From contig DASZRG010000043.1 of NCBI GenBank assembly GCA_035549295.1, positions 1,910 through 65,909 on the forward strand: a DNA stretch of 64,000 nt, in the 5' to 3' direction. Positions 27,850 through 60,499 of the stretch are shown piece after piece. The position numbers and the translations under genes were made by a program. Origin of the DNA: Patescibacteria group bacterium (GTDB lineage: Bacteria; Patescibacteriota; Microgenomatia; Levybacterales; GWA1-39-11). How positions within the stretch are numbered: the stretch's first letter is position 1; each line of letters opens with the position of its first letter. Under the pieces are notes generated by a model. That model saw nothing but the letters and a program-made list of their open reading frames with translations. It had not been told where the DNA came from and did no database searches.

Positions 27850-27881
27850 TATTTGGAACTTGGAATTTGGAATTTGATGCT

Positions 27882-29675
27882 TTAGTCTCTTGTTGCGTCG
27901 GCAACATGTTCTTCTTCCAGGCGGAAGATACCTTCATCAAGTCTTTTTTGATCAAGGAAATGGGAGATAAATCCAATTGAGCGGGATGCGACAAAAATTG
28001 CGTTAAAGAATTCAATATCTACAAGCTGCTTTAATTCATCAACTGAATAGCCTTCCTTTTCTGATAATAAATCAAGAAGTACCGCAGCTATTGATCCATC
28101 TATATTGAGAATGAGATTTCCCTTTTTCGCAACTGTTACTTTTTCTATTTCTTTTGCAAATTTTGTGTACTTGGCATCAAGTCCTTCTGTGAAAGACAGA
28201 ACTTCAGCAACACGCGGATCTGGAATATCAACTCTATATTTTCTGTGACCTATTCCTGAAATATATTTTTTATTTGCCGCAAATTCTTCAACAAACTTTG
28301 ATGCATCAACATCTCGTTCAACACCCATCACAAAATTTGCTGCTGCTTCATTTATGGCCCCTCCAAATCGTGGACCTATTGTTAAAATTCCTGTAGCTAG
28401 TGACGACACAAGATCGCGTCCTGCGCGTGCTGTAATAATGGTATTAACTGCACCTGATACATATGGACCATGGTCAACAAGAAGTTTGAGAACAAAATTC
28501 ATAAAATCTTCGAGTTCTTGTGACTTGATTTTTTTTCCAAGAAACATTGAGGCAACAACGTACCCAAACGAGTGATTTTTTGAAAAACTCAAAAGTTCTT
28601 CACCCACTATTTTGACACTTCCACCATCATCCCTTGAAATACTTGTTGATATAAGTCCATGTTTTCGACTGTCCATATCATCTATTATAGCCTGTTTCTC
28701 ATCATTTTCTTCCGATAACTCCTGAGGTATCTCGCTCATCATTTGCACAAATTCAGAAAAGCTTTCTGCGACATGAACTCCGGCGTCCCTCAGAGCATCT
28801 CGTTTGGCGCGAGCTGTCTCGCGCGCGTTTGCCGCCATTGCTTTCGCATGACCAAATTGCGGAGCTGTTGGGAAAATTTCAGCAACGGTTCCCGCAATAT
28901 AACAATAAACAGGTTTTGTAAGTTTTCCGCTTTGTATAAGTTCACAAACTCCATATTCATCCGTTCCACCTAGCTCTCCAAAATAAACTATATACTCAGT
29001 TGCCGCATCATTTTCAGCCGCAAGGAATGCTTCTTTTGGTGGAGTTGCAGGAAATCTTTCACCTCCGAAATGGAGCGCAAATGAAATATTTTTCTTGTGT
29101 TGTGCAAGAATGTTTATAAGCTCATTCGTTGTCCCACCTGATGCTGAAAAAACCGCAATGTTACCTCGCTTAAATAAGCGTGCATCAACCAGTTGTCTAT
29201 GCGTAACTCCTCCGATAGCACCAAGTTTTACAATATTCGGAATAATAAGTCCCACCGATGCTGGACCGATGATAAATATATTTTTCGCATCGGCAAGAGT
29301 CTTAAGATCTATCGCATGTTTTTCTGGAACACCTTCTGCAAAAACAGTACCGCCAATAATCGACGGTAATTTTTCAATCGCGTCAGCCGATGAAACAAAA
29401 GCGCGTCTACCCGATGAAACATTTATAAAATATGTGATAGCCTCACGAAGATCACTTGGGATTTTTGCAACTTCAGAATAGACGGGAATTAAAATTTCTT
29501 TTTTTCCAAAAAAGTATCTCTCAAATCGACGGCCCGCAGCAACAATTCCAATAATCGATGGTTTAGTATTTCCCGATGTAAATTCAAAATCTAGAATTGA
29601 TTGAATTATCGACGGATAAGATCCGATGAATAATATTTTTTTGTCTGAACTGATTATTTTGTCTATGCTGATCAT
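27882..29675 (-). CDS. aclA: ATP-citrate lyase subunit A-like protein (succinyl-CoA-synthetase-alpha-like CoA-binding domain plus citrate-synthase-like citryl-CoA lyase domain)
   Basis: Alignable blocks to ATP-citrate lyase include KEILIPVY, IIGPASVGLI, the phospho-His loop QFGHAKAMAA, HGPYVSGAVNTIITARAGRDLVSSLATGILTIGPRFGGA, GIGHRKYRVDIPDPR, KKGNLILNIDG and FISHFLDQKRL. Confidence 0.85.
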   Translation of the reverse strand: MISIDKIISSDKKILFIGSYPSIIQSILDFEFTSGNTKPSIIGIVAAGRRFERYFFGKKEILIPVYSEVAKIPSDLREAITYFINVSSGRRAFVSSADAIEKLPSIIGGTVFAEGVPEKHAIDLKTLADAKNIFIIGPASVGLIIPNIVKLGAIGGVTHRQLVDARLFKRGNIAVFSASGGTTNELINILAQHKKNISFALHFGGERFPATPPKEAFLAAENDAATEYIVYFGELGGTDEYGVCELIQSGKLTKPVYCYIAGTVAEIFPTAPQFGHAKAMAANARETARAKRDALRDAGVHVAESFSEFVQMMSEIPQELSEENDEKQAIIDDMDSRKHGLISTSISRDDGGSVKIVGEELLSFSKNHSFGYVVASMFLGKKIKSQELEDFMNFVLKLLVDHGPYVSGAVNTIITARAGRDLVSSLATGILTIGPRFGGAINEAAANFVMGVERDVDASKFVEEFAANKKYISGIGHRKYRVDIPDPRVAEVLSFTEGLDAKYTKFAKEIEKVTVAKKGNLILNIDGSIAAVLLDLLSEKEGYSVDELKQLVDIEFFNAIFVASRSIGFISHFLDQKRLDEGIFRLEEEHVADATRD

Positions 29676-29747
29676 TTTTTTTCCTTGTCATTCTTAAGGA
29701 GCAACGCGACTGAAGAATCTTTGTTAAAGATCCTTCGAGCTTCGCTC

Positions 29748-30935
29748 TCAGGATGACAAACTTATAATTGCTTCACCTACAATATCTGACACCACAAATT
29801 CCGGGCCATGAACTGCACCTAGTAGCTTATTTTCATCTAAGAATTTTCTCATAATCTCAAGGCCTTCTTTCTGATGTGGACCACCGCGTCTTACAAAAAC
29901 TTTAACTCCTTGCTCTTGAAGATCTGGTACGACATCCGATATAGCACGAATAACTCCCAAAAAAGTCGTTCTAATATCTGTAAAGTTTGCAACTCCTCCA
30001 CCGATAATTAACACCTTTTTCTTCGCCTGAGATTTTAAAAGTAGAGAAAGTAAATTTTTTGCATAGAGAAATGTCTCCTCTTCAGTCGGATTTCCAGAAT
30101 ACTCTCCATAGTTTGCAAGTTCTCCACCATATCCAAGACTCTGGACTTCATCTGCCAGCATTACACTCACTCCTCCACCTGAGAGCAACATAAAAATAGA
30201 ACCATTAGGATTGAGAACAGTTAGCGTAAGCGACGATGAACTTTTCTCGGCAACTTTTGCAATATTTTTCTCTTCCTCAGTTTTATCAAGCTTTGCGGAT
30301 CGGATATCGTGACTACTCCAGTTATCGACAAAAAATTCAGCAGCCGAATCTACTTCACTTGCTATATCAAGCATGAACGGTGTCTTAAAAGAAATAACAA
30401 GAGGATTTATCTCAAGGAATGAAAAATAATTTATTTCAAAAACTTCAATTATTTTGGTAAGAAAGTCAGGACTTAATTCTATTTTTGACGCGACTTCTTC
30501 TATATCTTTTGGATCTGTAATCAGATGTTTTTTTACTTCATGCTCATACGCTTCAACATCAACTCCACCCTTACTTGAGTAATAAAGGACAGTCCCCTCC
30601 CCCGCTCTCTCAAGTGCAAGATAGTGTTCTTCTGAATCTTCATGAGCTATCATTTCCTCAATCAAAAAATGAGAATATCCTTTTTTACTCAGTTCTGAAA
30701 CTGCATCTATTATGTCGTTTGCTTTTTCAAGATCAAGTTTTATAAGTCCTTGTTTAAATCTCTTTTTAATTCCTTGATCAACTTTAACAACGTATTTTTT
30801 ATCGGTCTTTACTGAATCTTCGATCTTTGAAATTGGATCATGATCTATCGTGAAAGGGAAACCAGAATATGGTGTTTTGAGATGATTGTTGACGATAGTT
30901 TTTGCGCGAAATTCGGATAACTTTACTCGTGGCAT
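29748..30935 (-). CDS. aclB: ATP-citrate lyase subunit B-like protein (ATP-grasp, succinyl-CoA-synthetase-beta-like)
   Basis: Blocks matching the ACLY N-terminal half include YLEINPLV, LTVLNPNGSIFMLLSGGGVSVM, ELANYGEYSGNPTEEETFLYAKNLLSLL, KVLIIGGGVANFTDI and VFVRRGGPHQKEGLEIM. Confidence 0.85.
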   Translation of the reverse strand: MPRVKLSEFRAKTIVNNHLKTPYSGFPFTIDHDPISKIEDSVKTDKKYVVKVDQGIKKRFKQGLIKLDLEKANDIIDAVSELSKKGYSHFLIEEMIAHEDSEEHYLALERAGEGTVLYYSSKGGVDVEAYEHEVKKHLITDPKDIEEVASKIELSPDFLTKIIEVFEINYFSFLEINPLVISFKTPFMLDIASEVDSAAEFFVDNWSSHDIRSAKLDKTEEEKNIAKVAEKSSSSLTLTVLNPNGSIFMLLSGGGVSVMLADEVQSLGYGGELANYGEYSGNPTEEETFLYAKNLLSLLLKSQAKKKVLIIGGGVANFTDIRTTFLGVIRAISDVVPDLQEQGVKVFVRRGGPHQKEGLEIMRKFLDENKLLGAVHGPEFVVSDIVGEAIISLSS

Positions 30936-35429: not shown

Positions 35430-36596
35430 ATGAGAAAGTTTTTTGCAATATTTATCGCACTATTTTTACTTCTTTCTATCTTTCCTGTACCGACATTTGC
35501 TGCTGAACCTCAAAAAATTGTTGTTCTTGCAAGAGGGAAAACGGTTGACAGTGATTACTTTGGCGCAGGAAACGAAGTTAGAATTTCAGGAACTGTAAAT
35601 GGAGATGCATATGTTGCAGGAGGAACTGTAGTAGTCGATGGTACGATTAACGGAGATTTACTTGTAGCCGGTGGCAATATAACTGTCACAGGAACAGTAA
35701 GAAATAATATTAGAAGCGCTGGTGGAAATATAAGCATATCAGGCGCAACCGTCGGAGGAAATATCACAGCTTTAGGAGGTCAAATTAACATCGATAGTGC
35801 AAACCGACTTCAAGGCAGCATTGTTGCAGGAGGAGGAAATATCCAGATTTTTGCCACCGTCCCACGAGGAGTTACACTTGGAGGAGGAAATGTCGTGTTA
35901 GGAAGCGTTGTTGGAAAAGATGTTTTTGCTGGTGTTGGTAATTTAACAATAACTCAGAATGCGCAAATTAACGGAAATTTAACTTATTTATCTGATCAGA
36001 ACGCTAATATCGCGGAGGGTGCATCAATTTCAGGTCATGTCAAACACGAAATACCTCAGAGAAATCAAGTAAGAGCGAGCCAAATAGGTCGAACTACCGC
36101 ACATGCCGCGGCAGGATTTCTGGGAATACTCAAGATATTTGATTTAGTAATAATTATAATTTGGGGATTATTCTTCATAACGTTCTTCCCTGTATATACA
36201 ACCAATGTTTCAAATTATATTAGAACCAATTTTTGGACCAGCTTAATTACTGGACTAGCAGTCCTAGTACTTACTCCTATTATCGGAATATTATTGTTTG
36301 TATCTATACTTGGGATTCCTTTTGCGCTACTGTTGTTTGTTCTATATATGATACTAATTTGGATTTCAAAAATATTTGTCATCAACACTTTTGGACAATT
36401 TATTCTAGCTCGAACAAATAATAAAACAGGCGCTATTACTACTTTTATAGTCGGAGTTGTCGCCTACTTAATACTAACTCTCATTCCAATAATTTCATTT
36501 CTAACTCATTTGATTATTACACTGGTAGGAGTTGGCGCAGTTGCTGCTCAAAAACAAAAATATTACTCCGATCTCCGAGCAAAGAAGTTGATATAA
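35430..36596 (+). CDS. Secreted bactofilin-like (polymer-forming, beta-helical repeat) protein with a C-terminal polytopic membrane domain
   Basis: A signal peptide (AIFIALFLLLSIFPVPTFAA) is followed by about eight degenerate G-x-V/I-x-G-D/N repeats (GTVNGDAYVAGGTVVVDGTINGDLLVAGGNITVTG...) and then four or five TM helices. Confidence 0.55.
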   Translation: MRKFFAIFIALFLLLSIFPVPTFAAEPQKIVVLARGKTVDSDYFGAGNEVRISGTVNGDAYVAGGTVVVDGTINGDLLVAGGNITVTGTVRNNIRSAGGNISISGATVGGNITALGGQINIDSANRLQGSIVAGGGNIQIFATVPRGVTLGGGNVVLGSVVGKDVFAGVGNLTITQNAQINGNLTYLSDQNANIAEGASISGHVKHEIPQRNQVRASQIGRTTAHAAAGFLGILKIFDLVIIIIWGLFFITFFPVYTTNVSNYIRTNFWTSLITGLAVLVLTPIIGILLFVSILGIPFALLLFVLYMILIWISKIFVINTFGQFILARTNNKTGAITTFIVGVVAYLILTLIPIISFLTHLIITLVGVGAVAAQKQKYYSDLRAKKLI

Positions 36597-36663
36597 GATA
36601 AAAAGTCACATTAAATCAAAGAAGGTTGATAATAGAAAATATTTGTTTTATTCTTGAGGATGA

Positions 36664-38154
36664 TTGGAATTTATCAAATTGGAACAATTACTAAGCTCTA
36701 AATTTTACAAAAAACATAGCTACGAAATCATGGTCGTAGCAATAATTCTGCTCGCCATTTTTCTTCGCTTCTACAACTATTCAGGCCGCTTACTACTTGC
36801 TGGAGATCAAGCACGCGACGCAATAATTGCCCAAGAAATAGTAAACGAACACAAGATTCCTGCTGTTGGTCCATTTTCATCAGTCGGTAACTTCACAACC
36901 GGAAACATTTGGTACATATGGCTTGGATTTTCAGCGGCTCTTATTCCTACTTTCGAAGGACCTTGGATAATTCTTACCCTGTCCTATATCACGATAGTAA
37001 TTTTGATGATAATTATTGCAAGAAACATAGGCGATAAGTCCTTTTCACTGATAGTCGGACTTTTGGCGGCAGTTTCACCAGCCGAAGTTGCCCAAAGTAC
37101 CAATCTTACTAACCCATCTCTTGTAGCAGTATTTTCGGTTTTAACGCTACTGTTTGCACTGCTTTATTTAAAAAAGGGTACAAATTTATTTTTGTTTTTG
37201 GTTGCCTTCTTTATAGGAGAAGCGATAAGTACGCATTTTCAAGCAGTCTATCTTCTTGTATTAATTCCAATAGTTCTTGTTGTTAAAAGACCAAAGTTAT
37301 CTGGATTTGTTTATTTAGCAATTGGACTTATTATTCCATTCATTGCCTATTTTTATTTTGACTTCAATCACAACTTCTACAATATTCGTGGAATCATTGA
37401 CTATGTAAGATTCGGCCAATATAGAATATACATTGCAAATCGATGGCTTACATACGCAGCCGTTTTTTGGCCCGACATGTGGGGAAAAATAATCGGTGGG
37501 AACAAACTATTCGGCTATTTGTTTATGGCCCTTGTAACGCTCTCCACAATCTATTCACTTCTTAAAAAACAAATTAACAAACAATTGCTATCCGTCGTTG
37601 CAACTTTTGCAATCGTTTTTGTTGCGCTTCGATTTTATCGCGGAGAAAGATTTGATGGATATTTTGTATTTTTACATCCATACGTATTGTTATTGTCTGC
37701 ATTCGTAATCTATTTTATTTACAAGTTAAACAAATATTTAGGACTGCTTATTTTATTTCTTGTATTAATCTTTAGCATAAATGCAAGTTTACCTGCTCTT
37801 TTCGATAAACAAACAGAAGTAAATAAAGGCGAGTATTGGAGCAACGTTTTTATAAAAGATTTTCCTGATAAAAAATTTGAGTTTTATCAATTCACAAATA
37901 GCAATGAATCGCTAAGTCTTCCAATAGTTATTAATCTTTATAAAAAAGGCAAAATTCAAGATGGTGGATATCGAATTGGTTTTGGAGGTCCAAAACCTGC
38001 GGACAGAAAAAATTATGTTTATCTAAAAGACAATAAGTTAGGATTTGACCTATGGAGTCTAAATAGTAGTAGTTCTGCGCAGCTCATAAAATCCGGCTGG
38101 CACAAAGCAAATCCTTCCTCAATATATAAGGTGTCGGCGGAGTGGTATAAATAA
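36664..38154 (+). CDS. Polytopic membrane glycosyltransferase-like protein (GT39 / ArnT / PMT-like fold)
   Basis: The 496 aa ORF has more than 10 TM helices. An extracytoplasmic-loop motif AGDQARDAIIAQEIV resembles the DE/DD loop of GT-C mannosyltransferases. Confidence 0.5.
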   Translation: MEFIKLEQLLSSKFYKKHSYEIMVVAIILLAIFLRFYNYSGRLLLAGDQARDAIIAQEIVNEHKIPAVGPFSSVGNFTTGNIWYIWLGFSAALIPTFEGPWIILTLSYITIVILMIIIARNIGDKSFSLIVGLLAAVSPAEVAQSTNLTNPSLVAVFSVLTLLFALLYLKKGTNLFLFLVAFFIGEAISTHFQAVYLLVLIPIVLVVKRPKLSGFVYLAIGLIIPFIAYFYFDFNHNFYNIRGIIDYVRFGQYRIYIANRWLTYAAVFWPDMWGKIIGGNKLFGYLFMALVTLSTIYSLLKKQINKQLLSVVATFAIVFVALRFYRGERFDGYFVFLHPYVLLLSAFVIYFIYKLNKYLGLLILFLVLIFSINASLPALFDKQTEVNKGEYWSNVFIKDFPDKKFEFYQFTNSNESLSLPIVINLYKKGKIQDGGYRIGFGGPKPADRKNYVYLKDNKLGFDLWSLNSSSSAQLIKSGWHKANPSSIYKVSAEWYK

Positions 38155-39943: not shown

Positions 39944-40108
39944 TGTCGTATTGTACTATAAATCGTGCTCAAATACCAGTATTTAAACAAATTGACCAAG
40001 AACCAAATTCCAAATTCCAAACCAAATTTAAAAGTTAAATTTTAAATTGTTTAAACATTGATGATTTGTTAATAGGTGCTTGGTGAATTGATTATTAGGA
40101 AGTGAGAA

Positions 40109-49980: not shown

Positions 49981-50377
49981 GTTTTATAAAATAACAAAAT
50001 TACAAATTCCAATTTCCAAATAAATTCTAAATTTTCAAATTACAAAATCTATAAACAATTGTGCTTTTAGCTTTCTGAATTTGCGAAAGTAACACTTTTT
50101 TGATTTTTTAAATTTGATATTTGTTTGGAATTTGGTGCTTGGTGATTGGTACTTAAACTTATATGTCCTTTCCCATTGCCATTTTGAATATTGCTGAAAT
50201 AAATGATTTGACAAAACGAAGTGTGTAATAAAAAACCATGTTAAATATCTTAACGATTGTGGGCTCAATTTTTTCGAAATAATATTTTATGCGGGAGAGA
50301 AATGCAGAACGATTGTAATCTTTAATATCTTGATCGGTCATCAGACTCGAATTTTGATCGTCTTGCATAGATTAAGT

Positions 50378-51115
50378 TTACGTTGATGCGTTAAGTGTTT
50401 CAAGTGAAGCGTGTATTATAAGTCTTTTCCAAATTGTTCCAGGTGGTGTACATGTAACCAAAGTTATATATGAATGATCAAAACTTTGAGATAGTATGTT
50501 GGTATCATCTGGTGAAGTAATTACTATTGAAAATATTTTGTATTTAAACTGTGTACCTTGAACAGTAATGTTTATTTCATCCCCAACTTTTATAGTGTGA
50601 AGTGTAGCGAAGATAGTTTTATAATTTTTTTGGTCAAACCAAGCAGGAATAGTCGAATGTCCAAATATCACGGCTGTTCCATTCTGACCCGGAATGGCAG
50701 TACCGAGGTACTGAACAAGATGATGATCGAGATCATAGTCACGTGTTGAAACTGTAGCGTTATCTATCCCTAGTTTTGGAATAGATAGGAGATATGAATC
50801 CACCTTTGAGTGTTTAACTGTATTTGATGGAAGACTCGGGTACCAATTTCTTGCATCATTATAATCAGACGTTAAAGACGATATTCCCTGACTAATAAGT
50901 CCTCCAAAGTCCATCCCTCCATTTAAAACCATGTACTTGGGTATCGGAACTTCAAGATTGGTTTGAATATAGTCACCCAGAAAAACCTGATAAGCGATAA
51001 CTGGAAATAAAAAGTAAAGAAATATTCCAAGTCCAATAGTTATTAATATTACTCCGGCGATTTTTTTGTAGATTTTTTTGTCTACTCGTTCATTTTTTTC
51101 GTAGTATTCGGGCAT
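50378..51115 (-). CDS. Sortase family transpeptidase
   Basis: An N-terminal TM helix is followed by a catalytic His (AVIFGHSTIP), the catalytic Cys in the TLVTC motif, and a downstream Arg. Confidence 0.8.
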   Translation of the reverse strand: MPEYYEKNERVDKKIYKKIAGVILITIGLGIFLYFLFPVIAYQVFLGDYIQTNLEVPIPKYMVLNGGMDFGGLISQGISSLTSDYNDARNWYPSLPSNTVKHSKVDSYLLSIPKLGIDNATVSTRDYDLDHHLVQYLGTAIPGQNGTAVIFGHSTIPAWFDQKNYKTIFATLHTIKVGDEINITVQGTQFKYKIFSIVITSPDDTNILSQSFDHSYITLVTCTPPGTIWKRLIIHASLETLNAST

Positions 51116-53388
51116 TAGTTTCTAATTTCAACACTTATATTCTTTGGGTTGGCAGAAAGCATCGCGGGAAGACCAGGAATTTTGTTTTTGAATGAGATGA
51201 CAACATCTGTCACACCCGTCATATCTCGCAATTTTTTATCTGCATCATTGACGCTTTTGCCACGAACATCGCTAATTAATTTTGCCGTATCGATTTGAGG
51301 CGAGAAAACAGCATTTATTTTGAGAGTTGCCGAAGCAGAATCTCCATTCGATCCTGGCTTAACGTCTGTAATATCTATTTTTGAATTCTGGGTTTGAAAT
51401 ACATAGGACCCAGGAACGTCATTTTTAGAAAGTTTTTGGACATAGTCATCAAGATCAGACTTGCTATATGTTCCAACGTTATAGTCAATTGTTGCTGTCA
51501 AACCAACGGTTCCGGCTTCATCTCCAGATTTTTTAGTATACGACTTGTCCTTTACTTCTGATGAAAGAGCTTGGGGAAACGTTACCTCACTTGAGTCAGA
51601 ACTTTGGGCTTTTGAAACCGCATCACCTTCGAGTTTTTGCGTCACAAGAGTTAATAAGTCTTTTAGATCTGTGTCCGAAACAACTGTTGTTGTTTTACTC
51701 GTTCCACCAGTTATTGCATCTGAATTTTTCGCTATAACATCAGATGATGAGACACCTTTTACTGTAAAATTCGAAGCAGATGGTAAATTGTACTCTTTAC
51801 CAAATTTGGAAGCTTGAACTTTTACCGATGCTGATGAAAGGGTCGTTGAAAACGATGAAGTTGAGGCTATATTAACGTCATCTTGCAACTGGAACTCCAA
51901 GCCATTGGGCCCGACAATAGTTGAACCATCAAGAAAAGTTTTACTGTCTTCTGTTTTGTTGTAAATAGTAACTGACCCAGTTGCCTTATCTCCTGTCTCT
52001 TTTTTACCTGTCGCATTTTTACTCTCATCTCCCTTCACTTCTTCTGTTGAAACAGACATTTTGATCTCGTTATCTCCCGTCGGATCTTTTGAAAATGAAA
52101 TCGGGACCGACTTATCAACTGCCTTTTTATCAGCAAATATTATAATTTGCGATTGGAGAAGAACGTTATAATAAAAATACAAAAATCCTGCGATTAAAAT
52201 TATTGCTCCGACAGCAAAAAATATCCCTTTTGATTTGATGAAGTTACCGCCCGAGACCGATGGAACCGTAGGAATACTTGGAATTTTAAGACCCTTTAGT
52301 TTAGACAGAACAGCCGAAACATCAATCGGTACGGGAAGAAGTGCCTTCTTCTCATCAGCAGCTTCCTCGTCTGGCTCATAATCCTCGTCTGTTTCTTTGA
52401 AGTATTTAACGTTTGGTTCTTCTTCAAAACCTGCAAAATCGCCCACTTTTGCAACGTCTGATTTTTCAGTGTTTTTAAGTGACTCTTCAAAAGCGTCTTC
52501 TTTTTCATCCATCTCAGGTGCCGCCTCAATCGCAATATCTTTTTCTTTCAGAAATCCAAACTCCTCAGAAGTTGCCGTATCAAGGATAACTTCCTCATCG
52601 TCGACTAAAGCTCCGCTGTTCGTTCTCACGTCAGACAAAACCTCAAGCTCCATTTGCGTTGCAACTCCATTTATAGTTGCCTCGTTCTCAACGCCTTTCT
52701 CGAGAACAACAACCTGAGGAACATGAAGAAATGGAATTGATTGTGGCCATTTATGAGAAATAAATTCCTGCTGCATTTGTGCAGCATTGTCATAATCAAG
52801 AAGAACGAGTTTTGCGGGAAGTACGTCAACACTATCCATCTTTTTGAATAGCTCTTCCGCCGTTTCAATTACACCCTCACTTACAGAACTTGATTGCGCT
52901 TCCAAAATTTTGCCTGCGCGAACCAGGTAGGCAAATACGTGATTTTTTGTAACTTCAATGAACATTGCAGATACTGGAGCTCCTTCTTTTTTCTCAATGA
53001 AATGAACAATCGCCTCAATAGATGTGAGATATCCTATCGGAGTTAGACCAAGAGACTTACAAACAGTTTTGAGACGATCAAGATAATCAGGTTTTATTTT
53101 ATTCTCAACAATCCAATCATATGGAAGAGAAAAAATTGTTTTATCAACTGTTGCGCCTTCCGGAAGACTTGATTCCAGGAAGCTAATTGAGCGATCGGCC
53201 GCTTTGAGAAGTTCTTCGGAGGATATTTCATCAATGTCTGTTTCGAGGTGATCTTCGTGGCTTGCAAGAATAAAAAGCTTATCACCATGCTCTTCAAAAA
53301 GAATTGCCCCAACCTTATTCGGCTTAATTAAAAGTGATAGAAAATAATTTTTTTCTACTTTTTTGTTCTTTAAAAAAGGCAGCTGCAT
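51115..53388 (-). CDS. Hypothetical bitopic membrane protein (757 aa), translationally coupled to the sortase gene
   Basis: A cytoplasmic N-terminal domain of about 370 aa is followed by a TM helix (GIFFAVGAIILIAGFLYFYY) and a roughly 360 aa Ser/Thr-rich extracytoplasmic domain. Its stop overlaps the sortase ATG by 1 nt (TAATG). Confidence 0.55.
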   Translation of the reverse strand: MQLPFLKNKKVEKNYFLSLLIKPNKVGAILFEEHGDKLFILASHEDHLETDIDEISSEELLKAADRSISFLESSLPEGATVDKTIFSLPYDWIVENKIKPDYLDRLKTVCKSLGLTPIGYLTSIEAIVHFIEKKEGAPVSAMFIEVTKNHVFAYLVRAGKILEAQSSSVSEGVIETAEELFKKMDSVDVLPAKLVLLDYDNAAQMQQEFISHKWPQSIPFLHVPQVVVLEKGVENEATINGVATQMELEVLSDVRTNSGALVDDEEVILDTATSEEFGFLKEKDIAIEAAPEMDEKEDAFEESLKNTEKSDVAKVGDFAGFEEEPNVKYFKETDEDYEPDEEAADEKKALLPVPIDVSAVLSKLKGLKIPSIPTVPSVSGGNFIKSKGIFFAVGAIILIAGFLYFYYNVLLQSQIIIFADKKAVDKSVPISFSKDPTGDNEIKMSVSTEEVKGDESKNATGKKETGDKATGSVTIYNKTEDSKTFLDGSTIVGPNGLEFQLQDDVNIASTSSFSTTLSSASVKVQASKFGKEYNLPSASNFTVKGVSSSDVIAKNSDAITGGTSKTTTVVSDTDLKDLLTLVTQKLEGDAVSKAQSSDSSEVTFPQALSSEVKDKSYTKKSGDEAGTVGLTATIDYNVGTYSKSDLDDYVQKLSKNDVPGSYVFQTQNSKIDITDVKPGSNGDSASATLKINAVFSPQIDTAKLISDVRGKSVNDADKKLRDMTGVTDVVISFKNKIPGLPAMLSANPKNISVEIRN

Positions 53389-53461
53389 ATTTGATTACTA
53401 TCAGACTACGAGTAACTAGATACTAGAGAATAGTAACTAGAAGTCTCCAGTTATTAGTTAG

Positions 53462-53573
53462 TCGGTTACGATGCCCGTTTCGTTTTTGGGTTACGTTAAA
53501 CGTAAAGACTTAACCGATACGGGTATCGTTACCAAATAACTTTAAACGATTGGAATCGCCCTTGATACCCTTA
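53462..53573 (-). repeat. Roughly 110 nt dispersed element, copy B. It is inverted relative to copy A and directly abuts the alaS stop codon
   Basis: The reverse complement aligns with 38155-38266 at about 85% identity. On the alaS strand it begins GGGTATCAAGGG immediately after the TAG stop. Confidence 0.85.
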
Positions 53574-55670: not shown

Positions 55671-57173
55671 ATGGCCAGAAAAAAACCTAACTTATTTAAT
55701 TCGGTTAAATCAAATCTTTTCAGAACAATCAGTTTGATATTTCAACGTGTACGTTCAGCTAAACTAAAGGATAGATATAAATCTTTAGTTAGCCAGGCAA
55801 ATAAAACAATTGAGAAAAAACCATTTACAGTATTTTTTACACTACTTGGCGTTATTCTTCTTTTAATTATCGTCGGAAGCATAATAAGAAAGCCAAAAGC
55901 TGCTGAGAAAATCACACCCCCTATAAAAACAGTTGAAGTCTATAGAATAGGTACTGCTCCAAGAATCCATGTTCAAGCACAGGTTGAAAAATCGCAAGTC
56001 GCAAAAATAGAAGCTCTATCAGGCGGAGTCGTATCTCAAATTAATGTAGTTGAGGGTCAAACTGTTGAACAAGGCACACCATTGGTCTCCTTAGCATCAA
56101 ATTATAGTGGTGGAAATATGGCAAGTCTTCAAAGACAATTGGCCCAAAACCAATATCAGAATGTTCAAGATACGTATGATGCTCAAAAAGATATCATACA
56201 AAAACAACGACAAGCAGCAGATGAAAACAGGACTAATGAAGACAAAATGCGAGATATTGCAAACGTTTCTGTAACTGATACGCAAGTTTTGGTAAATCTT
56301 GATAACGATATACTATCAACCCTAAATACCAATCTACAGAATTTAGAAAACACTAATACGGGTGGGGTTAATGACCAGATGATACTCTCAACAAAAGAAC
56401 AAATAAGTCAATTCCAAGCAGCTATTGCCCAAGCTGATGCAACACTTCATCAGACAGGATATCAAGCTGATCAAGCAAATCCGCCGTATCAACTTGCGAC
56501 AATTACACACGACGAGACAATCGAGCAACTCAATATTCAAGAAAAAACTCTCGACCTATCACTTGAGGCAAGTAAAATAAATCTTTCTATAGCCCAGGTT
56601 GCTGAGGCAGCTATGTATCCCGTTGCACCGTTTGCTGGAGTGGTTGAGCGAATTTATGTAACAGCTGGACAAAATGTAACTTCAGGCACACCTCTTGTAC
56701 TGATACACGGAGCTGGAGACTTTAAGATAGTTGCGAAATTGCCTGCAAAAACTGCAAAAACAGTTTCAAAACTTGAAACCAGTCAAATTCACATAACCGA
56801 CAAGAAAACGATTAGTGAAAATCCTTCATATATTTCAAATGAAGCAACCGATGGATCTTTGTATGCGGTAATTTTTACAATGGATGCTGCTTACCAAAAC
56901 GATCTATCAGATCAAGGGTTTGTAGATGTTGATATACCTGTTGGATATGCAAATACATCTGAAATTTCACCGTTTATACCTCTTGATTCGGTTTATCAAA
57001 CTCAGAATAATTCTTATGTTTTCGTGAATGATCACGGACATGCAAAAAGCAAAAATGTTACTCTTGGGACAGTTTTTGGACAGTACGTAGAAGTTGAACA
57101 CGGATTGTCGCGCGGCGATGAAATAGTTGTATCAAGAAACGTACTAAATGGTGACCCCCTCAAAACTGAATAA
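55671..57173 (+). CDS. RND efflux membrane-fusion (periplasmic adaptor) subunit
   Basis: An N-terminal TM helix is followed by a biotinyl/lipoyl-like hairpin (VSQINVVEGQTVEQGTPLVSL), a coiled-coil region and a beta-barrel domain. Confidence 0.75.
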   Translation: MARKKPNLFNSVKSNLFRTISLIFQRVRSAKLKDRYKSLVSQANKTIEKKPFTVFFTLLGVILLLIIVGSIIRKPKAAEKITPPIKTVEVYRIGTAPRIHVQAQVEKSQVAKIEALSGGVVSQINVVEGQTVEQGTPLVSLASNYSGGNMASLQRQLAQNQYQNVQDTYDAQKDIIQKQRQAADENRTNEDKMRDIANVSVTDTQVLVNLDNDILSTLNTNLQNLENTNTGGVNDQMILSTKEQISQFQAAIAQADATLHQTGYQADQANPPYQLATITHDETIEQLNIQEKTLDLSLEASKINLSIAQVAEAAMYPVAPFAGVVERIYVTAGQNVTSGTPLVLIHGAGDFKIVAKLPAKTAKTVSKLETSQIHITDKKTISENPSYISNEATDGSLYAVIFTMDAAYQNDLSDQGFVDVDIPVGYANTSEISPFIPLDSVYQTQNNSYVFVNDHGHAKSKNVTLGTVFGQYVEVEHGLSRGDEIVVSRNVLNGDPLKTE

Positions 57174-60100
57174 TGGCAATCAAATCTTATCTGTCAAATT
57201 TAAAATTTGACCCAAAACTTCGAGATTCTTTTAAAGCCAAATATCTAAACAATATACGGCTTGTTATTTTGTTTGTGTTGTTTCTATTTGTAGTTGGAAC
57301 ATCAAGTTTTTTGAGACTTCCAAAAAGACTCAATCCAGAAATTAAAATTCCTATTGTCTCAGTAACTACTGTTCTTCCTGGAGCTGGTCCAAATGATATT
57401 GAATCATTGGTAACGATACCGATAGAAGATGGTCTAAACGGACTGCCCAACAAAACTGATATTGACTCCACTTCGAGTGAATCGGTCTCAAATATTACTA
57501 TCCAATTTACATCTGGAACAGACTCAGAAAAAGCAAAGCAGGATGTTAAATCAGCTCTTGATAGTGTTACGACGCTGCCTACAGATGCGACAGCACCCAC
57601 TATCCAAACCTTTGATATTGAAAATCAACCCGTATGGATATTTGCAATAAAAACAAATGCTGATCCTGCAACCTTATCCCGTTTTGCAACTTCGCTTCAA
57701 GACAAACTTAAATCAAACTCAAATATAGATCACGTTGATATCTCAGGAATCGATAAACAAGAATTTCAAATATTGTTAAAACAAGATACCCTCTCCAACT
57801 ACAATGCCAATCCCATGCAAATTGCTTCTGCTGTTAAAGCGGCTTTGAAGTCATATCCTGCGGGGGATGTCGATACGGAAAATTCTTCTTTTCCAATCGG
57901 AATTGATGCACCAATAACATCTGCGGCTGATATAAGAAACTTAAATATCAATCTCTCGGGAGAAATTTTAAAACTTGGAGATATTGCGACAGTCTCAGAA
58001 AAAACTGCACCTAATGCTCAACAAGCGTACTATGCGGATTCCAATTTTTCAGCGCAAAAAGTTGTGACGTTTTCTGTTTTTAAAACCAAAAGCGCTGATA
58101 TAACAGACGCAGCTGCGGATGCAAAAAAAATAACAAACCAAACAATCTCTTCTTACCAAAATGTTTTTCAGGTGGTAAATGTTCAAGATACTGCAACCGA
58201 AGTTAACAAGCAATTTAACGACCTAATATCCAATTTTATCAGTACAATTATCTTGGTATTTATAACTTTTCTTGTTTTCTTGGGAGTTAGACAAGCCTTA
58301 ATTGTTTCGATAACCATTCCGCTAACATTTTTATCTGCATTTACAGTTATGTATTATGCGGGACTATCAATAAACTTTTTGTCGCTATTTTCACTACTTT
58401 TATCGCTTGGGCTACTCGTTGATGACTCAATCGTTATTATTACTGGAATAACCTCCTATTACAAAACCAAAAAGTTCACACCTCAGGAAGCGGGACTTCT
58501 TGTATGGCGAGACTTTATTGTTCCGATTTGGAGCACGACAATTACAACCGTATGGGCATTTATTCCACTACTTCTTGCAACAGGAATAATTGGTGAATTT
58601 ATCAAAACAATTCCTATTGTTGTAGCCGCTACTCTATACTCTTCAACAACAATTGCCGTTCTTATAACTCTTCCTCTTATGATGGTTACACTTCACTTGA
58701 AAATGCCTAAAAGAGTAAAACTTCTCCTTGTGGCACTTGGAGTTATTTTTCTAATAATGCTTATTTCTCCATTTACATCAGGAAATGCTTTTGGTGGGCT
58801 AATACTTATTCTGTATCTCGCATTTATTTTTGTGACATTTAAGATCAGATATCGAATAGCGGAGAAGATTGCTGAAAGAATTCAACCATCGAATAGAAAA
58901 AGAGTGTCTCAATTCTTTAACCAGTTCCTAAATCGCGGAATAATCGATCTTGAAATAATCGGAGAACGATATAAAGGAATCATCTCAAGAATACTGGAAA
59001 ATAAAAACTCGAGAAGAAAAGTTATTGCTGCCATCATAATCTTCACAGTCTTTGCATATCTTCTAGTTCCAACAGGTTTTGTTGTGAATGAGTTTTTTCC
59101 GAAAGAAAATGCAAACATATTATATGTAACAGAGGAACTTCCGGCTGGAACAAAAATAGAAACTACCAATAGAGAAGCACTGGACTTGGCTAACTTACTC
59201 AGAAAAACGAATGGCGTAAATCATGTTACATCCCAAGTTGGATCAGCAATTGACGAGACGGGAAATAGTTTCGTTTCGGGAAACAACATACTACAGGTAA
59301 CACTCGACCTACCGGATCCTGATAAACAAAAGATCACATCAATTGACATGGCAACCGCGTTACGCGAAAAATTTAAGTCTTACACCAAAGGCAAAATTGC
59401 GGTTGTTGAAGAAAGCGGTGGACCACCTGCTGGCGCTGATGTACAAATACAAATTCTAGGAGATGACTTGCAAAAACTTGATGGCTATGCTGACCAGATA
59501 TCTGCATTTCTTAACAAACAGTCAGGCGTTGTTAACGTAAATAAATCGATAAAACCTGGAGTTAGCAAGATAACTTTCGTTCCAGATTTTGCAAAAATAT
59601 CCCAAAACGGTCTGACAATTGATACCGTAGGTTTTACATTAAGAACATATATCAGTGGAAATAAAATTGACACCGTTAAATTTAACAATTCGACTGATTC
59701 AGAAGATATTGTCCTAAGACAAAATGGAGTAAATGCAAGTCCTGAAGAACTAGGCGCAATAAACATTACAAACCAGCAGGGAGCAGTTATCCCGCTTTCT
59801 GATCTGGGACAGTTCGCCCTAAAAACCAATCCTACCCAAATCACAAGACATAATAACAAGAGGACAATAACAATTTCAGCTGGTGTTTCGGCTGGATATT
59901 CTGTAACGACGATAAATAAAAAACTTGAAGATTTTGCGAATACGAAACTAGGTCTTCCGGATGACTACACATGGCAAACAGGCGGAGTAAATGATGAGAA
60001 TAATAAGTCGGTTCAGTCAATTCTACAAGCCATGCTTTTGGCAGGGATATTAATCTTCGGAACAATGGTCATACAGTTTACATCGTATAGACAAGCTCTC

Positions 60101-60499
60101 CTTGTAATGCTTATTATTCCAATTGCTGTTTCCGGTGTATTTGTAATTTTTGCACTTACTGGAACTCCGCTTTCATTCCCAGCTCTCATTGGAATTCTTT
60201 CACTTTTTGGAATTGTCGTAACTCATGCGATGGTCCTAGTCGATAGAATTAATCTAAATAGAAAATCAGGACTTCCTTTCTCAACTTCTATCGCCGATGC
60301 TGCAGCAGCCAGACTTGAACCAATATTCTTGGGATCATTTACTACTATCGTCGGACTCGTACCAATAACAATTTCAAACCCTCTCTGGCGCGGACTCGGT
60401 GGAGCAATTGTCGCGGGTCTCTCATTCTCAATATTTATAATGCTTTTCTTCGTACCGACAGTATACTATATGTGGTTCAAGCCGAGTTCGGAGAAGTAG
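57173..60499 (+). CDS. RND superfamily efflux transporter permease
   Basis: The 1108 aa ORF has a 12-TM architecture with two large extracytoplasmic loops. Its start overlaps the adaptor stop by 1 nt. Confidence 0.8.
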   Translation: MAIKSYLSNLKFDPKLRDSFKAKYLNNIRLVILFVLFLFVVGTSSFLRLPKRLNPEIKIPIVSVTTVLPGAGPNDIESLVTIPIEDGLNGLPNKTDIDSTSSESVSNITIQFTSGTDSEKAKQDVKSALDSVTTLPTDATAPTIQTFDIENQPVWIFAIKTNADPATLSRFATSLQDKLKSNSNIDHVDISGIDKQEFQILLKQDTLSNYNANPMQIASAVKAALKSYPAGDVDTENSSFPIGIDAPITSAADIRNLNINLSGEILKLGDIATVSEKTAPNAQQAYYADSNFSAQKVVTFSVFKTKSADITDAAADAKKITNQTISSYQNVFQVVNVQDTATEVNKQFNDLISNFISTIILVFITFLVFLGVRQALIVSITIPLTFLSAFTVMYYAGLSINFLSLFSLLLSLGLLVDDSIVIITGITSYYKTKKFTPQEAGLLVWRDFIVPIWSTTITTVWAFIPLLLATGIIGEFIKTIPIVVAATLYSSTTIAVLITLPLMMVTLHLKMPKRVKLLLVALGVIFLIMLISPFTSGNAFGGLILILYLAFIFVTFKIRYRIAEKIAERIQPSNRKRVSQFFNQFLNRGIIDLEIIGERYKGIISRILENKNSRRKVIAAIIIFTVFAYLLVPTGFVVNEFFPKENANILYVTEELPAGTKIETTNREALDLANLLRKTNGVNHVTSQVGSAIDETGNSFVSGNNILQVTLDLPDPDKQKITSIDMATALREKFKSYTKGKIAVVEESGGPPAGADVQIQILGDDLQKLDGYADQISAFLNKQSGVVNVNKSIKPGVSKITFVPDFAKISQNGLTIDTVGFTLRTYISGNKIDTVKFNNSTDSEDIVLRQNGVNASPEELGAINITNQQGAVIPLSDLGQFALKTNPTQITRHNNKRTITISAGVSAGYSVTTINKKLEDFANTKLGLPDDYTWQTGGVNDENNKSVQSILQAMLLAGILIFGTMVIQFTSYRQALLVMLIIPIAVSGVFVIFALTGTPLSFPALIGILSLFGIVVTHAMVLVDRINLNRKSGLPFSTSIADAAAARLEPIFLGSFTTIVGLVPITISNPLWRGLGGAIVAGLSFSIFIMLFFVPTVYYMWFKPSSEK

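What the first reader, a model, noticed from the sequence alone, without database searches (positions are those of the whole stretch)
50378..53388. Sortase translationally coupled (TAATG overlap) to a 757 aa bitopic protein with a large cytoplasmic N-domain and a Ser/Thr-rich ectodomain
The upstream protein is not a classical LPXTG substrate, as it has no C-terminal sorting signal. Instead it has about 370 cytoplasmic residues, one TM helix, and about 360 extracellular residues rich in S/T/K. A 1 nt overlap between stop and start implies co-expression at fixed stoichiometry. It could be a scaffold or partner for the sortase, or a novel surface-assembly factor. Two small overlapping ORFs (50159-50368 and 50035-50268) and an inverted TTGGAATTTGG-type repeat pair (about 49995-50150) follow the sortase gene.
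Basis: partly seen in the sequence, partly recalled or inferred. Interest (0 to 1): 0.55.

Follow-up and report, generated by a model that had tools for sequence, protein, structure and literature searches.

The report
Sortase operon with actin-like/baseplate-like membrane protein
In a lineage of ultra-small uncultured bacteria (Levybacteria), the cell-wall-anchoring enzyme sortase always follows, usually with overlapping codons, a membrane-spanning protein that has an actin-like domain inside the cell and a phage-baseplate-like module outside, plus a tiny third protein; no known sortase system looks like this, but a working link between the proteins is still unproven.

Summary
On the minus strand, a 757-aa gene (51115-53388) ends in TAATG, which starts a 245-aa sortase (50378-51115). 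A 69-aa ORF (50159-50368) follows and is also a conserved gene. The 77-aa TTG ORF is spurious.

The 757-aa protein is not a fusion artefact. It belongs to a large family of full-length proteins (700-820 aa). It has four parts:
- a cytoplasmic FtsA/PilM-like actin fold (aa 5-250) that lacks the ATP-binding motifs;
- an acidic disordered linker with an invariant FGF motif;
- one TM helix (385-410);
- a 347-aa ectodomain that is a complete baseplate-J/gp47-like module.

Its "NLPSGT" motif is a baseplate-J signature, not a sorting signal.

The sortase keeps its His153/Cys222/Arg231 triad but fits no curated sortase class. It sits directly downstream in 79 of 80 related species genomes, mostly with overlapping stop and start codons.

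Three caveats apply. All 80 genomes appear to be Levybacteria-type CPR genomes, where the flanking alaS, AMP phosphorylase and mltG are equally syntenic. No specific co-evolution signal was found, and no LPXTG-type substrate was found nearby. I could not run an outgroup test.

Best reading (about 0.4): a co-expressed membrane complex in which the bitopic protein scaffolds the sortase. This is an uncharacterised, moderately interesting module in a core genome region.

The parts
51115..53388 (-). Gene for the 757-aa bitopic protein (NCBI name: 'baseplate J/gp47 family protein'); stop codon at 51115-51117
   Evidence: The ORF is. An identical protein, P0001, is in NCBI. Full-length homologues (700-820 aa) number 129 and 651 hits in two searches. 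A profile search finds 11,474 50%-identity clusters at E<=1e-3, and the best 150 are full length apart from a few of 518-609 aa at the end of the list. The AF2 model has mean pLDDT 85.
52624..53388 (-). Cytoplasmic N-domain (aa 1-255): minimal actin-like (ASKHA) fold of FtsA/PilM type, apparently without a nucleotide-binding site
52237..52623 (-). Acidic, disordered cytoplasmic linker (aa 256-384) carrying the invariant FGF motif (aa 277-279, nt 52552-52560)
   Evidence: pLDDT is below 50 for aa 255-356. Length and sequence vary, but G278 and F279 are invariant and F277 is conserved in at least 90% of 108 sequences. Asp plus Glu make up 26%.
52159..52236 (-). Single transmembrane helix (aa 385-410)
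   Evidence: The best 19-residue Kyte-Doolittle window scores 2.24 with hydrophobic moment 0.04. The AF2 model has a helix at 385-410. Lys residues lie on the N-terminal flank.
51118..52158 (-). Extracellular domain (aa 411-757): a complete baseplate-J/gp47/TRI-2-like module, with the barrel at aa ~454-565 (nt 51694-52029)
50378..51115 (-). Sortase gene (245 aa): N-terminal TM anchor (aa ~19-45), conserved juxtamembrane extension, catalytic domain aa 110-238 with His153, Cys222 and Arg231
   Evidence: Pfam Sortase E 1.1e-22. TIGR01076 scores 64.9 against a cut-off of 39.35, and no class model passes. The best PDB match is C. perfringens SrtD 4d70, E 1.4e-16. FGHST and TCTPPGT.WKRL are conserved in at least 90% of 77 orthologues. 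TM KD19 is 2.64.
50159..50368 (-). Third gene: 69-aa protein with an invariant Pro followed by a basic amphipathic/hydrophobic helix
   Evidence: A 40-100-aa ORF with the core (I/V)WPxIYRIINxxxYFxxxLIKxxVxxAIxQIKG lies directly after the sortase in most of 73 loci (alignment A3). A profile search finds 37 stand-alone proteins of 50-90 aa; the few that carry a source name are Levybacteria or Patescibacteria group, and none is a fusion. KD19 is 1.0-1.9 and the hydrophobic moment is 0.46-0.59 over that window, with a maximum over 18 residues of 0.55-0.72.
50035..50268 (-). 77-aa TTG ORF overlapping the third gene and the spacer: judged not a gene
   Evidence: phmmer finds no hit in the ORFs of 80 related loci even at E<=10. 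No Pfam hit. It overlaps the conserved 69-aa gene in another frame.
49981..50158 (.). AT-rich spacer before the AMP phosphorylase gene, with an imperfect inverted repeat (50002-50012 / 50125-50135) and GGAATTT heptamers
   Evidence: Inverted-repeat arms are 74-91% complementary. RNA fold z is -1.76. No terminator-like site and no Rfam match. The sequence is not conserved in relatives.
53389..53573 (.). 185-nt spacer between alaS and the 757-aa gene, with the direct repeat AGTAACTAGA x2 (53411-53420, 53432-53441); likely holds the operon's promoter
   Evidence: One search gives the sequence. One search gives the repeat, spaced 21 nt apart. In relatives this spacer has a median of 14 nt and almost never overlaps. 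No promoter was demonstrated.

Best explanation
This is a three-gene envelope operon in the core genome of Levybacteria-type CPR bacteria. Its three products are:
1. A bitopic scaffold protein. Inside the cell it has an FtsA/PilM-like actin fold that has lost its ATP-binding motifs, followed by an acidic flexible linker with an FGF short linear motif. One TM helix follows. Outside, it displays a complete baseplate-J/gp47-type module that has been recruited to the cell surface.
2. A membrane-anchored sortase with an intact His-Cys-Arg triad.
3. A 40-100-aa protein with a proline-kinked basic helix.

Proposed mechanism. The three proteins are translated from one mRNA, with stop/start overlap between genes 1 and 2, and assemble in the membrane. 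The scaffold holds the lineage's general-purpose sortase at a defined site. Its cytoplasmic pseudo-ATPase domain and FGF motif would bind an intracellular landmark such as the divisome or a pilus platform, much as GspL and PilM-PilN connect cytoplasmic and extracytoplasmic parts of pilus and secretion machines. Its ectodomain would present wall or substrate next to the sortase active site. The small protein would act on the sortase membrane anchor, in the way SafA does in Actinobacteria.

Shown: the gene anatomy, the folds, motif loss or retention, and the conserved order and overlap.

Inferred: co-translation, the physical complex, the localisation role, and the role of the small protein.
For: - Conserved order. 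The sortase lies immediately downstream on the same strand in 79 of 80 species-level genomes.
- Overlap. The codon aligned to sortase M1 overlaps the upstream stop in most loci (-5 in 22 loci and -8 in 21, of 72). The alaS-to-gene-1 spacer has a median of +14 nt and is almost never negative. In the window the overlap is TAATG.
- Third gene. It is conserved directly after the sortase.
- Membrane location. Proteins 1 and 2 both have strong TM helices.
- Domain identities. N-domain = FtsA/PilM-like fold. Ectodomain = baseplate-J homologue. The sortase triad is conserved.
- Precedent. Small sortase-associated factors encoded immediately downstream of srtA are known (SafA, PMC9282373).
- Lineage context. 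Sortase is near-ubiquitous in Microgenomates (PMC6744442).
- Genomic setting. The locus sits among ribosomal, rpoBC, tuf/fusA, alaS and mltG genes, so it is core and not mobile.
Against: - All 80 loci appear to be from one lineage, in which alaS, AMP phosphorylase and mltG are as constantly adjacent as the sortase. Conserved adjacency may therefore be frozen synteny.
- Mirror-tree correlation of sortase with the ectodomain (r 0.72) is no higher than that of AMP phosphorylase with the ectodomain (0.77).
- No gene fusions among the three were seen.
- No sortase substrate or sorting motif was found in the 64-kb window or in 80 loci of up to 16 kb, so the sortase's job is unknown.
- The small protein's helix is amphipathic rather than clearly transmembrane, and it lacks SafA's FPW and PGP motifs (PMC9282373).
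- No physical interaction was computed or measured.
Confidence: 0.4

Rival explanations
1. Neighbours only. The 757-aa protein works in another envelope process, for example as a GspL/PilM-PilN-like platform of a pilus or secretion machine, or as a divisome/elongasome adaptor. The sortase is an independent housekeeping enzyme. The two are adjacent and overlapping simply because this compact core-genome region has not been rearranged within Levybacteria.
For: - The whole block alaS - gene 1 - sortase - (small) - AMP phosphorylase - mltG is syntenic in 68-74 of 80 loci.
- Spacers are short everywhere.
- There is no sortase-specific co-evolution signal.
- The architecture (cytoplasmic actin-like domain, TM, outer domain) is that of GspL and PilM-PilN scaffolds, which need no sortase. 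The fold hits to PilM are; the GspL architecture is from established knowledge.
Against: - Stop/start overlap is the rule for gene 1 and the sortase but not for alaS and gene 1.
- The small third gene travels with the pair.
- No pilus, secretion or division genes lie next to the locus in the window.
- No Pfam GspL, PilM or FtsA model matches.
Confidence: 0.35
2. The ectodomain is itself a sortase client of a non-classical kind. For example, a conserved surface lysine in the invariant TGKKETGDKAKG loop could act as the nucleophile that receives sortase-bound substrates, as pilin lysines do. That would build a membrane-rooted surface structure on a baseplate-like platform.
For: - There is a Lys-rich, nearly invariant extracellular motif: T460, G461, K463, E464, G466, A469, G471.
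- The sortase scores best, though below threshold, against class C (pilus-polymerising) and class D models.
Against: - No pilin-motif or LPXTG-bearing partner gene is in the locus.
- The conserved ectodomain residues (G, N, P, F, GG) are the generic baseplate-J signature shared with diffocin TRI-2, so they are probably structural.
- Nothing links the lysines to catalysis.
Confidence: 0.08
3. A prophage or tailocin remnant: a phage baseplate gene, as the database name 'baseplate J/gp47 family protein' suggests.
For: Pfam Baseplate_J and structural matches to phage and tailocin wedge proteins.
Against: - There are no other phage or tail genes in 64 kb; the neighbours are ribosomal, rpoBC, alaS and mltG genes.
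- No PHROG family matches, and there is no relative in IMG/VR.
- The domain lies outside the membrane, behind a TM helix, and is fused to an actin-like domain.
- At least 296 species genomes hold a relative, and in the 80 loci fetched it sits at the same chromosomal position.
Confidence: 0.01

Closest known systems
SrtA-SafA pair of Actinobacteria (housekeeping sortase plus small sortase-associated membrane protein; PMC9282373)
   Same: A very small protein (52 aa in A. oris; 40-100 aa here) is encoded immediately downstream of a membrane-anchored sortase, and the linkage is conserved across a whole lineage.
   Different: - SafA has a clear TM helix followed by an exoplasmic FPW motif, plus an N-terminal PGP motif.
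- Here the conserved (W)P precedes the helix, the helix is basic and amphipathic, and neither FPW nor PGP is present.
- No sequence similarity was shown.
- No large bitopic partner is described at Actinobacterial srtA loci.
GspL and PilM-PilN (type II secretion and type IV pilus inner-membrane scaffolds)
   Different: - No sequence-level membership in the Pfam T2SSL, PilM_2 or FtsA families.
- The N-domain is a minimal ~250-aa version.
- The outer domain is a 347-aa baseplate-J module, not a small ferredoxin-like domain.
- No ATPase, platform or pilin genes are nearby; the neighbour is a sortase.
Baseplate J / gp47 / TRI-2 wedge proteins of contractile tails and tailocins (Pfam PF04865)
   Same: The ectodomain is a sequence-detectable and full-length structural homologue. 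It shares the barrel signature GK.YNLP...F...F.GGT.
   Different: - It is displayed outside the cytoplasmic membrane as part of a cellular bitopic protein.
- There is no partner gpI/TRI-1-type gene and no other tail gene.
- It is a chromosomal core gene of a bacterial lineage.
FtsA (membrane-tethered actin homologue of the divisome)
   Different: - FtsA binds ATP, has the 1C subdomain and uses an amphipathic helix.
- This domain lacks the phosphate and adenosine motifs, is ~170 aa shorter, and is anchored by a true TM helix that continues into a large ectodomain.

Membership tests
Sortase superfamily (PF04203 / TIGR01076) | Score above the curated family cut-offs | tested here: met
   PF04203 scores 80.5 bits against 26.6. 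TIGR01076 scores 64.9 against 39.35.
Sortase superfamily (PF04203 / TIGR01076) | Catalytic His, the TLXTC cysteine and the downstream Arg | tested here: met
   His153 (IFGHST), Cys222 (ITLVTCTPPG) and Arg231 (WKRL) are conserved in at least 90% of 77 orthologues. They align with C. perfringens SrtD.
Sortase classes A-F (NCBIfam class models) | Score above a class-specific cut-off | tested here: not met
   Class C scores 65.8 against 160, D 54.4 against 165, E 51.3 against 160, and F 30.7 against 166. The sortase is unclassified.
Classical sortase substrate (cell-wall sorting signal) | C-terminal LPXTG-like motif followed by a hydrophobic segment and a basic tail | tested here: not met
   The 757-aa protein ends in a hydrophilic beta-strand. 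The only LP-containing conserved motifs are NLPSGT, which is a baseplate-J signature, and the structured IPFLPxxLP. No ORF in the window or the 80 loci carries such a signal.
Baseplate_J (PF04865) | Sequence match to the family model | tested here: met
   The window protein scores 23.0 bits against 21.1. 25 of 26 family members match, best E 1.4e-8. The profile hits TRI-2 at E 9e-7.
Baseplate_J (PF04865) | Genomic context of a contractile tail or tailocin (sheath, tube, spike, gpI-like partner) | tested here: not met
   None was found among the window ORFs of 150 aa or more that were scanned against Pfam. No PHROG hit. Nothing in IMG/VR.
ASKHA / actin-like ATPases (FtsA, PilM, MreB) | Two-lobed RNase-H-like fold | tested here: met
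ASKHA / actin-like ATPases (FtsA, PilM, MreB) | Phosphate-1 (DxG), phosphate-2 (DxGGGT) and adenosine (GG) nucleotide-binding motifs | tested here: not met
   By position in the strands of the model, the family consensus reads YFLSLLL, AIFxExxKK and IILLDxx, with no Asp or Gly. The canonical motifs come from established knowledge. No structural superposition at residue level was available.
ASKHA / actin-like ATPases (FtsA, PilM, MreB) | Match to the Pfam FtsA, PilM_2, T2SSL (GspL) or MreB models | tested here: not met
   No such hit at E<=1 in the window protein. One weak MreB-like_C hit (E 0.027) in 26 members.
SafA (sortase-associated factor A) | [quoted passage not shown] | tested here: met
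   The gene starts 10 nt after the sortase stop in the window and is conserved at that place in relatives.
SafA (sortase-associated factor A) | Clear TM helix followed by an exoplasmic FPW motif, with an N-terminal PGP motif | tested here: not met
   KD19 is 1.0-1.9 with hydrophobic moment 0.46-0.59. The only invariant residue is a Pro that precedes the helix, and there is no FPW or PGP. The SafA features are taken from PMC9282373.
SafA (sortase-associated factor A) | Binds the sortase TM segment and blocks its cleavage by signal peptidase | not testable with these tools
   This needs two-hybrid tests or immunoblotting. The sortase does have a VIA|YQ sequence after its TM helix that could be a signal-peptidase site (read; inference only).

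The most novel reading that the evidence does not exclude
Levybacteria-type CPR bacteria have turned a phage baseplate wedge protein into an extracellular platform. This platform is wired through the membrane to a degenerate FtsA/PilM-like domain. Together with a tiny helix protein, it forms a dedicated machine that positions or gates the cell's sortase. That would be a new class of sortase accessory system, and the first case of a baseplate-J module working on the outside of a cell envelope.
Probability: 0.2. Interest if true: 0.75.

Novelty: new variant of a known kind. Interest (0 to 1): 0.5.

Why it matters
Sortases are the main route by which monoderm bacteria fix proteins and pili to their wall. 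Apart from SafA, almost no accessory factors are known. CPR bacteria live attached to other cells, and their surface biology is largely unexplored.

A core, lineage-wide operon that couples a sortase to a trans-membrane protein with an actin-like inside and a baseplate-like outside gives a concrete, testable entry point into two questions. One is how these ultra-small cells organise their envelope. The other is how a phage structural module was recruited for a cellular role.

The result also corrects a misleading annotation. 'Baseplate J/gp47 family protein' suggests a prophage gene, which this is not.

Tried and rejected
1. Outgroup test of the pairing: not achieved.
   - Two homologue searches and the representative search list only the best 120-150 hits. 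All have the same architecture, and the few that carry a trustworthy name are Levybacteria or Patescibacteria group.
   - The genome scan keeps only the best 80 of 296 loci.
   - IMG/VR holds no relative.
   - The AFDB library was unavailable.
2. Mirror-tree co-evolution over 54 loci plus the window (55 sequences): sortase versus ectodomain gave r 0.72, which is not above the other neighbours. Uninformative or negative.
3. Search for sortase substrates by C-terminal motif plus hydrophobic segment plus basic tail, in the window and in 80 loci: none. The 388-aa protein ending ...NNKTG plus a hydrophobic stretch turned out to be a polytopic membrane protein.
4. 'NLPSGT' as a variant sorting motif: rejected, because it aligns with YNLPTN of diffocin TRI-2.
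5. Rosetta-stone fusions of the small protein with the sortase or gene 1: none.
6. Regulatory RNA or terminator in the spacers: no Rfam hit, no terminator-like site beyond chance, weak fold z-score.
7. Phage origin: no PHROG hit.
9. Complex prediction was not attempted.
Full report
**1. What is in the sequence**

Three co-oriented ORFs lie on the minus strand:
- 51115-53388, 757 aa
- 50378-51115, 245 aa
- 50159-50368, 69 aa

The first two meet at ...AACTAATGCCC, so the stop TAA and the start ATG share one base. Both start codons are backed by orthologue alignments conserved from residue 1.

A 185-nt spacer separates the first gene from alaS upstream. A 178-nt AT-rich spacer separates the third gene from an AMP/thymidine-phosphorylase-type gene downstream.

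The rest of the window is core genome: the ribosomal protein operon, tuf, fusA, rpoB/rpoC, murB, mltG and alaS. No phage, pilus or secretion genes lie near the locus.

**2. The 757-aa protein**

It is not a fusion artefact. An identical protein is in NCBI as 'baseplate J/gp47 family protein [Patescibacteria group bacterium]'. 129 homologues, nearly all covering 100% of the query at 30-57% identity, were found, and 651 more from a divergent member. A profile search of 1.84 billion cluster representatives gave 11,474 matches at E<=1e-3 and 3,255 at E<=1e-30. The best 150 are 700-820 aa, apart from a few of 518-609 aa at the end of the list.

The AlphaFold2 model built on 108 sequences has mean pLDDT 85, with both globular parts above 90. 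The anatomy, is:
- aa 5-250: a compact alpha/beta domain.
- aa 255-384: an acidic (26% D+E), disordered, length-variable linker. Its only fixed feature is the FGF motif at 277-279.
- aa 385-410: one strongly hydrophobic helix with lysines on its N-terminal side, giving N-in/C-out.
- aa 411-757: a beta-rich ectodomain with 14% Ser, 9.5% Thr and 11% Lys.

**3. The N-domain is an actin-like (ASKHA) fold**

At sequence level no Pfam family matches it in any of 26 members. By position in the model's strands, the three nucleotide-binding signatures known from the ASKHA literature are replaced:
- phosphate-1 DxG by LSLLI
- phosphate-2 DxGGGT by FIEVTKNH
- adenosine GG by LLDY

I therefore read it as a pseudo-ATPase, that is, a protein-binding module. 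This is an inference from motifs, not a residue-level superposition.

**4. The ectodomain is a true baseplate-J homologue**

- Pfam Baseplate_J passes its cut-off and matches 25 of 26 members.
- The family profile finds diffocin TRI-2 (CD1371) in the PDB at E 9e-7. The alignment includes GK(E/K)YNLP...F and F.GGT.
- Foldseek aligns about 340-360 columns with entire 346-404-aa wedge proteins of diffocin, phi812 and XM1 and with phage baseplate-J proteins.

The conserved NLPSGT is therefore a baseplate-J signature, not a variant LPXTG. The invariant ectodomain residues are mostly Gly, Asn, Pro and Phe, which points to a structural or binding module rather than an enzyme.

**5. The sortase**

- Pfam Sortase E 1e-22; TIGR01076 passes; no class model (A-F) passes.
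- The best solved relative is C. perfringens SrtD.
- His153, Cys222 and Arg231 sit in motifs conserved in at least 90% of 77 orthologues.
- It has a strong N-terminal TM anchor.

According to Meheust et al. [quoted passage not shown] That fits a general-purpose enzyme.

**6. The third gene**

Nearly every related locus has a 40-100-aa ORF directly after the sortase. It has an invariant Pro and the core (I/V)WPxIYRIINxxxYFxxxLIKxxVxxAIxQIKG.

A profile search finds 37 stand-alone proteins of 50-90 aa. The few that carry a source name are Levybacteria or Patescibacteria group, the window's own copy is among them (annotated by NCBI), and none is a fusion. Its helix is basic and amphipathic rather than clearly transmembrane.

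The overlapping 77-aa TTG ORF has no homologue and is discarded.

**7. Conservation of the arrangement**

A scan of one genome per GTDB species found 296 genomes with a relative. The best 80 loci were fetched. Where the records carry a trustworthy name, it is Levybacteria, Levyibacteriota, Microgenomates or Patescibacteria group; many others are obviously mislabelled.

The sortase is immediately downstream on the same strand in 79 of 80 loci, and the 80th is cut by the contig end. Measured from the codons aligned to residue 1, the sortase start overlaps the upstream stop in most loci (-5 in 22 and -8 in 21, of 72). The alaS-to-gene-1 spacer has a median of +14 nt and is negative in only 3 of 69.

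This supports co-translation of genes 1 and 2 as a selected feature. However, alaS, AMP phosphorylase and mltG are equally constant neighbours (74, 73 and 68 of 80 loci, with the misses mostly at contig ends). Within this lineage, adjacency alone therefore cannot prove a functional link.

A mirror-tree test did not single out the sortase: r 0.72 with the ectodomain, against 0.77 for AMP phosphorylase. I could not reach outgroup lineages with the tools available (see Tried and rejected). That is the main gap.

**8. Substrates**

No ORF with a C-terminal sorting signal exists in the 64-kb window or in the 80 loci. The 757-aa protein has none either. The sortase's clients are unknown.

**9. Spacers**

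It gives an unremarkable fold (z -1.76). It matches no terminator pattern and no Rfam family. It is not conserved in relatives, which carry their own short repeats there.

**10. Interpretation**

The best-supported reading is a three-protein membrane module. In it, the bitopic protein acts as a trans-membrane scaffold for the lineage's sortase. Its design resembles GspL and PilM-PilN, with an actin-like non-catalytic domain inside tied to an outer domain. The small protein would act on the sortase anchor, analogous in position to SafA (PMC9282373). Confidence is about 0.4.

The principal rival, at about 0.35, is that the proteins are merely neighbours in a frozen core region and that the 757-aa protein serves another envelope process. 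A non-classical acceptor role for the ectodomain is possible but unsupported (about 0.08). A prophage remnant is excluded for practical purposes.

**11. Novelty**

Searches of the held literature returned no description of this family or pairing. The queries combined sortase with Patescibacteria, CPR, Microgenomates or baseplate J, and baseplate J with Patescibacteria or CPR.

The sortase itself is an ordinary, if unclassified, member of a known family. The partner's architecture (FtsA/PilM-like pseudo-ATPase, TM helix, extracellular baseplate-J module) has no characterised counterpart. I rate the locus as a new variant of a known kind (a sortase locus with new accessory proteins) and of moderate interest (0.5). 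The interest would rise considerably if a physical or functional coupling were shown.

Noticed in passing
window 27882-30935 (-): Two adjacent genes carry the domain sets of the two ATP-citrate-lyase subunits: Citrate_bind + ATP-grasp N-domain, and Citrate_synt + CoA-ligase. This is unexpected in a CPR genome with reduced metabolism.
   Followed up: no
window 55671-60499 (+): A HlyD-type adaptor and an AcrB-type RND transporter overlap by 1 nt in a presumed single-membrane organism. Only 4 of 80 related loci have this pair next to alaS.
   Followed up: partly
window 27855-27875, 40005-40018, 49997-50017: Tandem GGAATTT heptamers occur at three intergenic sites. There are 5 matches against 2.1 expected, and 7 of 100 shuffles reach 5. 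Relatives have different short repeats in the equivalent spacer. This may be a lineage-specific intergenic signal.
   Followed up: partly
window 53411-53420 and 53432-53441: An exact 10-nt direct repeat, AGTAACTAGA (TCTAGTTACT on the coding strand), is spaced 21 nt apart and lies 23-53 nt upstream of the 757-aa gene start. It is a candidate operator or promoter element.
   Followed up: no
window 12157-14625 (-): An 822-aa protein with an N-terminal membrane anchor and a large Ser/Thr/Pro-containing outer part has no Pfam match.
   Followed up: no
window 35430-38154 (+): A 388-aa protein has a signal peptide, a Gly/Asn-rich repeat region and several C-terminal TM helices, with no Pfam match. 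It is followed by a PMT_2-type (protein O-mannosyl-transferase-like) membrane glycosyltransferase. This may bear on glycosylation of Ser/Thr-rich surface proteins such as the ectodomain studied here.
   Followed up: no
L030:907-4995: alaS and the homologue of the 757-aa protein read as one 4089-nt ORF. This is either a real fusion or a sequencing or assembly error.
   Followed up: no
L005, L007, L009-L015, L058, L064, L068 and others (record titles): Many species-representative MAGs that carry this Levybacteria-type locus are titled 'uncultured Gammaproteobacteria bacterium', 'Candidatus Sulfotelmatobacter', 'Lysobacterales' or 'Saccharimonadales'. The public records are taxonomically mislabelled.
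   Followed up: no
window 50981-51061 (sortase aa 19-45 and following): The sortase TM helix is followed by ...FPVIA|YQ, a sequence that fits the small-residue -3/-1 rule of signal-peptidase sites (read). This is reminiscent of the cleavable anchor of Actinomyces SrtA that SafA protects (PMC9282373).
   Followed up: no
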